Shown in pieces: positions 7,801-37,173 of a stretch of 64,000 nt of DNA. A program made the position numbers and the translations under genes. The notes under the pieces were generated by a model. The model saw only the letters and a program-made list of their open reading frames with translations, was not told where the DNA came from and did not search any database. How positions within the stretch are numbered: position 1 is the first letter of the stretch; each line of letters starts with the position of its first letter. Location of the stretch: assembly GCA_951406725.2 (NCBI GenBank), contig OX597827.1, positions 60,202,001-60,266,000 of the forward strand, written 5' to 3'. The stretch is from Octopus vulgaris (taxonomy: Eukaryota).

Positions 7801-8111
7801 TTTAACACCAGGCCAAACCTTATAGTCCTGATCCTTCTCTAATCAAATCCAATCCAATCCAATCGTAGTAATCTCTCTTTACTCTTTTACTCTCTTTTAC
7901 TTGTTTCAGTCATTTGGCTGCGGCCATGCTGGAGCACCGCCTTTTAGTAAAGCAAATCGACCCCAGGACTTATTTTTTTGTAAGCCTAGTACTTATGTTA
8001 TCGGTCTCTTTTGCCGAACCGCTAAGTTACGGAGACGTAAACACATCAGCATCGGTTGTCAAGCGATGCTGGGGAGACAAACAGACATACAAACACAAAC
8101 TCACACACACG

Positions 8112-8156
<45 letters not shown>

Positions 8157-8221
8157 GAACACACACACAACACACACATACACACGCACACACACATACA
8201 CACACGCACATACATATATAT

Positions 8222-8674
8222 AGCAGTCGTCGAAGCAACACGTTTTTGTTCGTCTCCCGCGGCCATAAGGCACTTCATAAGCCAGCCCCAACTCAACTCG
8301 TCCTGTCGAAAGACCCTTGTCCTACGTCCTGGTTTTGTTTTGTTTTTTATCCTTACCGTTATTGTTTTTACGTTTTTGTATTCTTATTCGTGCTTTCCTT
8401 ATTGTTTTCACGTATTCTGTATTTTTATTCGTGTACATCGTTCGTTTTCCGTCCTTGTGTTGTATACATTCGAAGCTTTCTTCTAAGGGATCTAATGCGC
8501 TTGGCTTAGATTTCCCTTGGGGGCTGCCCAGATCGTAGCAATCTCAAGATTAATCAGCCGAAATTACGAAGATGATCTGGTTCTTGACTGATGACTGAGG
8601 GCTTTCGTCCTGTGGTTCTTGTGTCGTCTCCTTGGTGTTTCATGTTCTTGTCCATGTTTGTATTTATTTTTTAC

Positions 8675-8680
<6 letters not shown>
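8222..8680 (+). mobile_element. Short Penelope-like/retrozyme-like element inserted in SINE B microsatellite
   Basis: Bounded by TA/CA repeats, T-rich 3' part, carries rearranged hammerhead motif. Confidence 0.55.
8528..8600 (+). ncRNA. Candidate non-circularly permuted hammerhead ribozyme
   Basis: GCAAU-C-UCAAGA (8538-8549), UCAG-CC-GAAAUUAC (8554-8567), UCUUGA-CUGAUGA-CUGA (8582-8598); extra helix CCAGAUC/GAUCUGG. Confidence 0.65.
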
Positions 8681-8744
<64 letters not shown>

Positions 8745-10060
8745 TACGACGGGGTTCTTTCAGTTACCGTCTACCAAATTCACTCACAAGGCTTTGGTCG
8801 ACCCGAGGCTATAGTAAAAGACACTTGCCCAATGTGCCATGCAGCGCGACTGAACCCGGAACCATGTGGTTCGTAAGCAAGCTACTTACGACACAGCCAC
8901 TCCTAAACCATTTTTTTTTTACCGCAGTCGTAAATAAGGAAGATTATGCTTAAAGACAATGTGGCGTGATTTGATAAAGATGAGGTTGCTCCTTTTTCGG
9001 TCGCGTTATGTATAACCGCAAGTCAACTGTGACTACAAGTTCCAATTCTTGTTATGTTGCGGTGGCTTGTGTATTTCAGTGACACTGGGAGCTATACAGA
9101 GGTCTAGAAAATAAAAGCAAAAGAAACAGAAGCATTGATGACAATTCAAAACCAACAAGACCTGGGAGAGGAAGGCTTTTCCTCAGCGAAATATGAGGGG
9201 TGCAGCAAAATCTTGAAATGAAATAGGATCAGCCTGGAGAAAAGCAGAAAAGAAAACTCAAAGTCGTGAATGGTGGAGAAAAGTTATTGGTGGCCTAAGC
9301 GAGCAATGGTTTTAAGTAAGTTGTAATGTTGCTGAATTATGACCACAAGCATTACAGTAATGATCATCTCTTTTCTCTTCAGAACAAGAACAAGAACAAG
9401 AACAAGAAGAGAAACAACAACAGCAATAACAACAACAACAACAACGACGACGACGGCGATGATGATGATGATAAACAACATCAGGGAAAAGACGAAGAAG
9501 GAAAAGAAAGAGAAGTAAAATGAGAAAAGGGAGGGAGAAGGAGGACGGGAAGGAGAAAGAGGAGAGAAGGGAACAAAAGAGGCGGAGGGAAAAAAAGGAG
9601 AGGTGGAGGAAGAAAGAGAAGCTGAGAGAAAAAGAAAGCTGGAGAGGAGTAGAAGGAGCGGCAGGGGAGAAGTATGAAAAAAAGACGTGGAGAGAAGAGA
9701 ACGAGGAGAAATAAGAGGAAAGAGATAGAGAAGTCGAATAGGGAAGTAATGGAAGAGGCGGAGGAGAGGAGTAGAAGAGGAAGGTATGTGGGAGGTGGCT
9801 AACGTTCTAGATTTGTAACGGGGGAGCGGGGTAGGAAAATATCATTTTCTAGAAATGTTTTTAAAAAAGATAGGGATTTGATGGGTGTGATTTTTGATAT
9901 GTTGGTTTTAACTGACCGAAAATCTGTTTAAAAGGCTTGTAAGACTTAAAGTTATGTACTGAAGGGTCAAGGCAGAACACACCCAGTTTTGCTAAACGAA
10001 ACAGGCGTCAACTTATGTCATATAAATACAATATATGTAGACATACGTGCATGCATATAT

Positions 10061-35679: not shown

Positions 35680-36020
35680 TACAAACGGAAAACATGACAT
35701 ACCTGTGTATATTTATATAATTCAAAAACATGTGTAGTAAATAAACATACTAATATATACTAAATATACAGACGAACAGAAACCACAGAAGGTCACCATC
35801 TCCTCTTCAGTTACCGGCCAGAGGGACAAGCGCAATTTCGGCCATTATCGATAATATTGCTTCCAATCTGGAGGCACCGGCAATAAATTTGCCGGGAATG
35901 GGACCAAAACATAACAAGACGAGACCGTTAGTAAGAGGACGAAGGACAAAGCAATAAACAGAATAAAGGCTTAGGGCCACACGAAAACAATAATTAGAAT
36001 GAAAATAATACATATACAGC
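35680..36020 (-). mobile_element. Short Penelope-like/retrozyme-like element with rearranged hammerhead
   Basis: T-rich flanks on minus strand, hairpin ccggcaa..ttgccgg at 35877-35895, hammerhead motif; boundaries approximate. Confidence 0.5.
35802..35871 (-). ncRNA. Candidate non-circularly permuted hammerhead ribozyme
   Basis: CCAGA..GCAAU-A-UUAUCG..CC-GAAAUUGC..UCUGG-C-CGGUAA-CUGAAGA-GG: all core nucleotides, stems III (5 bp plus 5 bp), I (6 bp), II (2 bp). Confidence 0.75.
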
Positions 36021-36213
36021 AAAAAAAAAAAGGTTTAGGGCTGCAGAACGACAAAAATGGGTAACGTAAAGGAGGAATGAAAACTGTCCTAAAAGACTAT
36101 AAACACGGGAGAGGTAGAGAGGTCCATATATGGGGTCCATATAAGCTTTTGCTGTTAAAATTAATCTCCAACAAATTAAGTAAGGTACAATACACAAAAT
36201 ATTTTAGCAATTT

Positions 36214-36660
<447 letters not shown>

Positions 36661-37173
36661 AAATTTGAATACAATTCTAATAATAATATATTATTATAAA
36701 AATTAAATATGATTTTTTTTTTAAACATCGAATGGCGAGGAGGGTCTATCTGCATAAAATGGGAATCAAAGGGGGTCCATAGGTAGAGAAAAAAAAATGG
36801 CTGAGGAACATTGATACGAACAGGTCAGACAAATGAAGAGCACGCAATTGCTCCAGCATGGCCGCAGTCAAATGACTGAAACAAGTAAAAGAGTAAATTT
36901 GAATACAATTCTAATAATAATATATTATTATAAAAATTAAATATGATTTTTTTTATGGCGAGGAGGGTCTATCTGCATAAAATGGGAATCAAAGGGGGTC
37001 CATAGGTAGAGAAAAAAAAATGGCTGAGGAACATTGATACGAACAGGTCAGACAAATGAAGAGCACGCAATGTTGATAACTTAGAATGATAAAGATCGAT
37101 TGGTCACGAATGGAGTGTCTTTAATCATATCTCTGTTCAATCAGGGTCGATCTGAGACTAAATAGCAACGACG

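What the first reader, a model, noticed from the sequence alone, without database searches (positions are those of the whole stretch)
8528..8600. Second X-Z-Y hammerhead in a diverged element, covarying with the first
Seen: CCAGAUC gua GCAAU C UCAAGA uuaaUCAG CC GAAAUUAC gaagau GAUCUGG u UCUUGA CUGAUGA CUGA gg. It has the same topology and similar spacing as 35802-35871, but stem I is UCAAGA/UCUUGA instead of UUAUCG/CGGUAA (different sequence, pairing kept) and the triplet is AUC. Two diverged instances with compensated helices argue against chance. Deviations: one C-A mismatch in stem III, and the stem II register (CUGA/UCAG) leaves an extra CC before GAAA, so this copy may be decayed or a structural variant. 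The host is a ~460-bp non-coding element sitting in a SINE's microsatellite, consistent with (inference) a non-autonomous Penelope/retrozyme-like family defined by a rearranged ribozyme.
Basis: partly seen in the sequence, partly recalled or inferred. Interest (0 to 1): 0.85.

Follow-up and report, generated by a model that had tools for sequence, protein, structure and literature searches.

The report
Split-core hammerhead ribozyme in octopus retroelements
Thousands of mobile-element copies in this genome (likely an octopus) carry all the parts of a hammerhead ribozyme in a scrambled order, with one helix partner moved upstream so that the catalytic core is predicted to be split, and intact copies likely cut their own RNA; the flagged copy is a slightly damaged member.

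Summary
The motif is real: 0 hits in 150 shuffles; its G-to-C-block pattern matches 8,174 times in the genome against 2 for the control. The bases before GAAA pair with an upstream strand (8522-8526 with 8555-8559). The same pairing, with other sequences, holds in Naiad Penelope-like 3' UTRs and in the 3' UTR of an RT/restriction-type retrotransposon of this genome, where no downstream stem II is possible. The chain is therefore predicted to open between A9 and G10.1, a topology outside Eckert's six orders. Stems I, III and a bridging helix covary. The window copy is a 5'-truncated member of a non-coding family of ~770-nt tandem units in (TA)n, and carries three lesions. Read by eye, 6 of 19 published Naiad ends show this form and 6 show type CSG, which would explain why Naiads were said to lack hammerheads. 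Cleavage is untested; family F2 fits stem II poorly.

The parts
8222..8682 (+). 5'-truncated copy of the non-coding F1-A element (unit 741-779 nt); fixed 3' end running into (TA)n
8522..8526 (+). Upstream 5' strand of stem II (GGCUG; G8522 predicted to be position 10.1)
8528..8532 (+). 5' strand of bridging helix P0 (equivalent of Eckert's helix 'I'); can extend to 8534
8533..8537 (+). 5' strand of lineage-specific helix P5; T8536 is a lesion of this copy
8538..8543 (+). Stem III 5' strand and AUC triplet; predicted cut between 8543 and 8544
   Evidence: site by analogy with hammerheads
8544..8549 (+). Stem I 5' strand
8555..8559 (+). Stem II 3' strand (CAGCC), directly before GAAA
8560..8567 (+). 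GAAA core and stem III 3' strand; A8566 is a lesion (2 of 37 F1-A copies)
8576..8580 (+). 3' strand of bridging helix P0
8582..8594 (+). Stem I 3' strand and CUGAUGA core; chain leaves the core after A9 (8594)
8600..8607 (+). Rival downstream stem II partner (8600-8603) and P5 3' strand, damaged by an 8-nt deletion in this copy
7892..8221 (-). Host SINE, one half, with CA/TA microsatellite
8683..8907 (-). (TA)n and the other half of the host SINE
35690..36110 (-). Copy of the older family F2 with the second motif (predicted cut after 35855); upstream stem II only 3 bp

Best explanation
This is a damaged copy of a conserved hammerhead-type motif whose strands lie in the order stem II 5' strand, bridging helix, cleavage site, GAAA, bridging helix, CUGANGA, and which is predicted to fold into a hammerhead core with the backbone opened between A9 and G10.1 and likely to cut itself after the NUH triplet (8543/8544). 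Shown: the core letters, five helices in F1, covariation, the position 75-140 nt before the 3' end of retroelements of three kinds. Inferred: the fold is the non-circular SGC/CSG hammerhead with its I-II bridging helix, opened at a new point; chemistry is the standard one (G12 base, G8 2'-OH acid, cyclic phosphate; recalled). Inferred role: in head-to-tail arrays successive cuts would release unit-length RNA, and because stems II, P0 and III all join the two products they would stay paired and could re-ligate; reverse transcription from the fixed 3' end, primed in (TA)n by a PLE enzyme acting in trans, would give the 1.x-unit copies with ragged 5' ends.
For: Chance excluded (18 metagenome pattern hits, 0 of 18 with stem I >=5/6). 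F1 subfamilies A-E: 94.8% of 725 cells paired, 10 of 25 pairs with changes on both sides, slid controls 19-47%. Unbiased scan of partners for the bases before GAAA ranks the upstream strand first in F1-A, B, C, D and in Naiads. Upstream stem II paired 0.92-1.00 in F1-A-D, 0.99 in 37 full E copies, 0.96 and 0.87 in two Naiad groups, 0.86-0.93 in F4, with three different sequences (GGCUG/CAGCC, GACAC/GUGUC, GGGGCC/GGCCCC); directly downstream partner 0.00-0.02 in F1, 0.01 in F4. Two Naiad groups keep the 60-105-nt motif at 78-84% identity while the rest of their 3' UTRs does not align (5 of 20 loci fetched carry it). L214 is a decayed Naiad with N-terminal GIY-YIG, RT motifs and the motif in its 3' UTR; 14 of 30 top Naiad-RT loci carry it downstream on the same strand; 27 of 30 top F4 ORF ends carry it. 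5' ends of E copies are in modest excess just 3' of the predicted cut: 17 vs 5 in the flanking 15-nt bins, p=0.017, 95 copies. Related SGC and CSG ribozymes with the same four helices cleave in vitro (PMC10085705).
Against: No cleavage data; no natural or engineered hammerhead with a chain break at A9/G10.1 was found in the papers searched, and Eckert et al. assumed this junction cannot be interrupted. Within F1 stem II never changes on both sides; its covariation rests on comparing families. Family F2 forms only 3 upstream pairs (0.58 over five positions) and that partner ranks fourth. A downstream GGCU five bases after A9 pairs 0.94-1.00 in F1-A, B, D, E. The 5'-end excess is broad (2 of 95 exactly at the site), one other bin reaches 0.16, a few calls are alignment artefacts, and TA microhomology could explain it. 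Nested folding is no better than shuffles (z -0.23 to 0.54, 5 of 5), as expected for pseudoknots but not support. F1 and F2 share no alignable sequence with Naiads outside the motif, and no young Naiad was found.
Confidence: 0.7

Rival explanations
1. An ordinary type-SGC hammerhead: stem II is formed by bases after CUGAUGA, either CUGA/UCAG with a CC bulge or GGCU/AGCC after a 5-nt insertion; the upstream match is an alternative, regulatory pairing.
For: CUGA/UCAG pairs 0.99 in F1-A and 0.88 in F1-B; GGCU/AGCC pairs 0.94-1.00 in F1-A, B, D, E and is the second-best partner in A, B, D; F2 can form 2 adjacent G-C pairs; Naiads have a wobble-rich partner at +4 (0.85).
Confidence: 0.1
2. The fold is conserved but is not an efficient cis-cleaving ribozyme: a hammerhead-derived structure kept as a binding or 3'-end signal for the reverse transcriptase, or one that cuts only in dimers or with protein help.
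For: A cut ~120 nt before the priming end would sever it from the ORF in F4 and Naiads; most E copies extend past the site (56 of 95); in an Anolis PLE cleavage was not needed for insertion in vitro and no RNA ends were found at the site (PMC11167929, passages); other PLE hammerheads cleave as dimers (title only).
Against: All catalytic letters, including an H at the cut site and free N7 variation (U, A, G, C), are kept across unrelated elements while helices change, which is the pattern expected of catalysis; modest excess of 5' ends at the site.
Confidence: 0.17
3. Chance arrangement of short motifs amplified by a repeat family.
For: Copies of one family are not independent; one look-alike prediction failed (a SINE with GCAAU and GAAAUUGC but no CUGANGA).
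Against: The same architecture with different helix sequences occurs in three unrelated element types; 0 of 150 shuffles.
Confidence: 0.02

Closest known systems
Type-SGC and type-CSG non-circularly permuted hammerheads (HRIMA-1; Eckert et al. 2023, PMC10085705; abstract, sections 4, 13, 15, 16, part 1 of 18, passages, 5-term supplement search)
   Same: Block order S-G-C, short linker from stem I to stem II, an extra helix tying stems I and II, full core. Joining the ends of an SGC or CSG ribozyme and reopening at A9/G10.1 gives exactly this strand order.
   Different: Stem II 5' strand is detached from CUGAnGA and lies first, which the six-order scheme excludes; Eckert found SGC only in metatranscriptomes and CSG in metagenomes, none in genomes of known organisms, whereas this is in >8,000 copies in an animal genome; F1 adds helix P5.
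Naiad Penelope-like elements, 'HHR_half_core' class (Craig et al. 2021, PMC8557442; passages, metadata sheet, passages of consensus file)
   Same: (TA)n targeting, partial tandems, inverted 5'-truncated copies; octopus and squid Naiads were flagged as having CUGANGA with GAAA 35-50 nt away; the same motif sits in this genome's Naiads.
   Different: The paper reports no ribozyme structure and states that Naiads lack canonical hammerheads; F1 and F2 are non-coding and do not align to Naiads outside the motif.
Animal non-LTR retrozymes (Cervera and de la Pena 2020, search listing; Li et al. bioRxiv 2026.07.22.740005, part 1 of 5)
   Same: Non-coding tandem units with one hammerhead each, proposed non-autonomous PLE derivatives.
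   Different: Retrozymes carry canonical type I hammerheads; units here are ~770 nt and mostly 1-2 per locus; circular RNA not tested.
Canonical type I-III hammerheads
   Same: CUGANGA, GAAA, NUH, stems I-III, G10.1-C11.1 closing pair.
   Different: No three-way junction in sequence order; Rfam finds no hammerhead at 8400-8670 up to E=10.

Membership tests
Hammerhead ribozyme | Core letters CUGANGA, GAAA, NUH conserved | tested here: met
   anchors partly select for GAAA and S block, not for the C block
Hammerhead ribozyme | Stems I and III adjoining the core, with covariation | tested here: met
   stem I 0.82-1.00, stem III 0.91-1.00 across groups
Hammerhead ribozyme | Stem II closed by R10.1-Y11.1 next to G12 | tested here: met
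   G-C closing pair from an upstream strand in F1, Naiads, F4; only 3 bp in F2
Hammerhead ribozyme | Site-specific self-cleavage | not testable with these tools
   no assay; indirect 5'-end excess only
Type-SGC hammerhead (Eckert 2023) | Order S, G, C | tested here: met
Type-SGC hammerhead (Eckert 2023) | Unbroken block C: stem II strand within 1-2 nt after CUGAnGA | tested here: not met
   offsets 0 and 1 pair 0.00-0.26 in F1, 0.01 in F4, 0.47-0.72 in F2 and Naiads
Type-SGC hammerhead (Eckert 2023) | Helix binding the free sides of stems I and II | tested here: met
   P0, 4 of 5 pairs change on both sides; 0.91-0.93 in F4
Penelope-like element, non-autonomous | 5'-truncated partial tandems and inverted copies | tested here: met
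   11 of 30 F1 loci with upstream partial unit, 7 of 30 F2 loci with inverted copy
Penelope-like element, non-autonomous | Fixed 3' end in microsatellite | tested here: met
   30 of 30 F1 loci end in TA or CA repeats, one continuing into the next unit
Penelope-like element, non-autonomous | 3' sequence shared with an autonomous partner | tested here: not met
   no alignment beyond 21 nt to five Naiad/Neptune-type loci; only the motif architecture is shared
Penelope-like element, non-autonomous | 30-40-bp tail extension | not tested
   not examined
Non-LTR retrozyme | Type I hammerhead in each unit | tested here: not met
   motif is non-circularly permuted
Non-LTR retrozyme | Circular RNA in vivo | not testable with these tools
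   only assembled contigs were available

The most novel reading that the evidence does not exclude
A seventh natural hammerhead topology, with the catalytic core itself split at A9/G10.1, is an active ribozyme spread across cnidarian, crustacean and cephalopod Naiads and captured by an unrelated restriction-type LINE and by non-coding parasites; with the CSG form in nematode and spider Naiads, non-circularly permuted hammerheads are the missing ribozyme of the Naiad clade and are common in animal genomes.
Probability: 0.55. Interest if true: 0.92.

Novelty: new variant of a known kind. Interest (0 to 1): 0.85.

Why it matters
It would break the stated rule that the hammerhead's CUGAnGA block and stem II must be contiguous, add a topology that current descriptors and Rfam miss, move non-circular permutations from rare metatranscriptome contigs to many thousands of copies in an animal genome, and explain why Naiad retroelements seemed to lack ribozymes. 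The claim is testable with one transcription assay on a 75-90-nt RNA. A hammerhead whose products stay joined by three helices is also of use for RNA engineering.

Tried and rejected
Rfam: whole window (150 of 256 hits shown, microsatellite/miRNA noise) and 8400-8670 gave no hammerhead. A candidate third family was predicted to carry the motif and did not: it is another SINE without CUGANGA. MAFFT alignment A1 misaligned the Naiad S block and was not used for counts; Naiad and F4 counts come from anchored scripts. One search had the Naiad stem II offset wrong by one; one search missed family E by an offset; the first P0 guess for F4 (0.69) was replaced by the proximal one (0.93). Rows dropped before counting as 5'-truncated: 2 of 82 F1, 3 of 29 F2, 5 of 45 Naiad, 23 of 60 E. 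Thirty GIY-YIG loci plus 20 extended ones showed C-terminal-endonuclease PLEs and no link to F1. Sequencing runs: no RNA holder listed; four runs laid were contigs only and show nothing on ends, strand or expression. Metagenome pattern scan: 18 chance hits. Earlier findings of this scan: three look-ups, nothing. A 3D model of the RNA could not be built. Published Naiad sequences could only be read by eye, not run through tools.

Full report
Observation. It holds the three hammerhead blocks in the order site (AUC, 8541-8543), GAAA (8560), CUGAUGA (8588), which is not a circular permutation. A descriptor for core, stem I and stem III finds this site and the one at 35802-35871 and nothing in 150 shuffles of the window. 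Rfam does not see it.

The host element. The window lies on contig C14 of a 2.8-Gb genome; that it is an octopus is my inference from near-identity of its Naiad elements to published Octopus consensi. The 459-nt stretch has 3,016 candidate relatives, the best 39 others at 91-96%. Eleven of 30 loci carry an upstream partial copy at 741-779 nt spacing; all 30 end at one place in TA or CA repeats; 5' ends vary. No RT or endonuclease ORF was linked to these units. The window copy is 5'-truncated and sits in the microsatellite of a SINE. It has three lesions in the motif: A8566 (2 of 37 F1-A copies), T8536 and an 8-nt deletion after the core (1 of 30 each). The second window site belongs to an older family F2 (670 candidates, 76-86%; 7 of 30 loci with inverted copies). 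A pattern from GAAA to CUGANGA has 8,174 matches against 2 for the control and shows subfamilies A-D; a fifth, E, has 381 against 0.

Which helices are real. On 29 distinct F1 sequences (A-E) a five-helix pseudoknotted structure is 94.8% paired, with 10 of 25 pairs changed on both sides and slid controls at 19-47% (related sequences, so not a probability). Stem I, the outer helix P0 and a lineage-specific helix P5 carry the compensatory changes. A scan of all partners for the bases before GAAA puts an upstream strand first in F1-A to D and in Naiads. In F1 this helix never changes, so its covariation comes from other families: GACAC/GUGUC in Naiads (0.96 and 0.87) and GGGGCC/GGCCCC in F4 (0.86-0.93), where CCCC follows the core and a downstream stem II pairs 0.01. 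Against: F2 has only three upstream pairs and ranks that partner fourth; a downstream GGCU at +5 pairs in F1-A, B, D, E though not in C, Naiads or F4.

Topology. Strand order is II-5', P0-5', S, G, P0-3', stem I-3' plus CUGANGA. Eckert et al. (PMC10085705) describe six block orders, validate SGC and CSG in vitro, note a helix joining stems I and II, assume block C cannot be interrupted, and found none in genomes of known organisms apart from one weak bacterial GCS case. Closing their SGC or CSG form into a circle and opening it between A9 and G10.1 gives this order, with P0 as their joining helix (inference). That a single extra base is tolerated at this junction in a viroid hammerhead is recalled, not from a call; engineered minizymes lacking helix II are mentioned in PMC544870 (passage).

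Autonomous carriers. Craig et al. (PMC8557442, passages) state that Naiads lack canonical hammerheads but flag eight with a half core, GAAA lying 35-50 nt to either side; Octopus and Euprymna are among them. A short motif from that consensus has 495 matches against 0 here. L214 is a decayed Naiad: N-terminal GIY-YIG, RT motifs, motif in the 3' UTR (weak Pfam GIY-YIG on the sister locus L213, E=0.0015, below cut-off). Fourteen of 30 top RT loci carry it downstream, and a second group at 37-49% amino-acid identity keeps the motif while the rest of the UTR does not align (5 of 20 loci). Family F4 (2,578 candidates) carries it ~90 nt after the stop of a single ORF of up to 1,175 aa (27 of 30 loci) with RT (PF00078 in homologues), a CCHC knuckle and a PD..E..K-type end; the label restriction-like endonuclease, HERO-like, is recalled. 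By eye, in the stretches shown for 19 of 54 published Naiad consensi (chosen mostly from flagged records, assigned by file order), 6 show the split form (two Octopus, Euprymna, Darwinula 4, Clytia 3, Morbakka 2; stem II for example GACGCC/GGCGUC and GGGGA/UCCCC), 6 show type CSG (five nematode, one spider), 3 are unclear, 4 show nothing in view.

Mechanism. Shown: architecture, conservation, position near the 3' end. Inferred: cis cleavage after the NUH by hammerhead chemistry; products held by stems II, P0 and III, so re-ligation is plausible; unit-length or circular RNA from tandems; reverse transcription from the fixed 3' end primed in (TA)n. In 95 consecutive E copies chosen by a 3' pattern, 5' ends per 15-nt bin were 0.04, 0.10, 0.11, 0.23 (just 3' of the cut), 0.09, 0.16, 0.07, 0.12; 17 versus 5, p=0.017. 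This is suggestive only. The partner enzyme is unknown: Naiads here are decayed; a young PLE with a 781-aa ORF and C-terminal GIY-YIG also ends in (TA)n but shares no sequence with F1.

Novelty. Ten paper searches returned no description of this form or of permuted hammerheads in Naiads; the library lacks most subscription papers, Eckert's alignments were searched by five terms only, one supplement page of Craig holds no text, and the 2026 retrozyme preprint was read in part 1 of 5 without supplements. PMC13725137 and PMC10162972 (passages) add nothing on it. Verdict: new variant of the hammerhead; fold about 0.85 likely, active cis cleavage in intact members about 0.7.

Noticed in passing
L439-L498 (for example L479; G000:C2:193235136-193242083): Family F4: a young RT/restriction-type non-LTR retrotransposon (open frames up to 1,175 aa) with the split hammerhead in its 3' UTR, two possible upstream stem II strands around a small hairpin, and some head-to-tail copies.
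   Followed up: partly
L290-L420 (family E): Young subfamily with its own compensated helices; P0 occurs as two fully compensated variants (21 and 7 of 37 copies).
   Followed up: yes
PMC8557442 supplement, File S5: Nematode and spider Naiad 3' ends read by eye as type-CSG hammerheads with an 8-13-bp joining helix; Darwinula Naiads 1-3 have a core in another, unresolved arrangement.
   Followed up: partly
window 3072 (-) and 4127 (+): Short repeats with CUGAUGA followed by a stem and GAAA in canonical order, likely a type I hammerhead SINE or retrozyme family.
   Followed up: no
L067, L121 (G000:C16:20835500-20840600): Young Penelope-like family with intact 781-aa ORF, CxxC linker, C-terminal GIY-YIG, a long upstream frame rich in repeats, a canonical-order hammerhead-like 3' end, inserted in (TA)n.
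   Followed up: partly
L077, minus strand near 390: Single S-G-C descriptor hit near a GIY-YIG locus; not shown to be repeated.
   Followed up: no
window 8480-8520: Long hairpin just upstream of the motif in F1; F2 has an unrelated 8-bp hairpin at the same place that overlaps its stem II strand.
   Followed up: no
L013, downstream of the F1 copy: Open frame of ~340 aa with retroelement-like C-terminal sequence directly after the insertion; not identified.
   Followed up: no
window 36730-37100: Direct duplication of about 220 nt seen twice in the motif listing (36801 and 37024).
   Followed up: no
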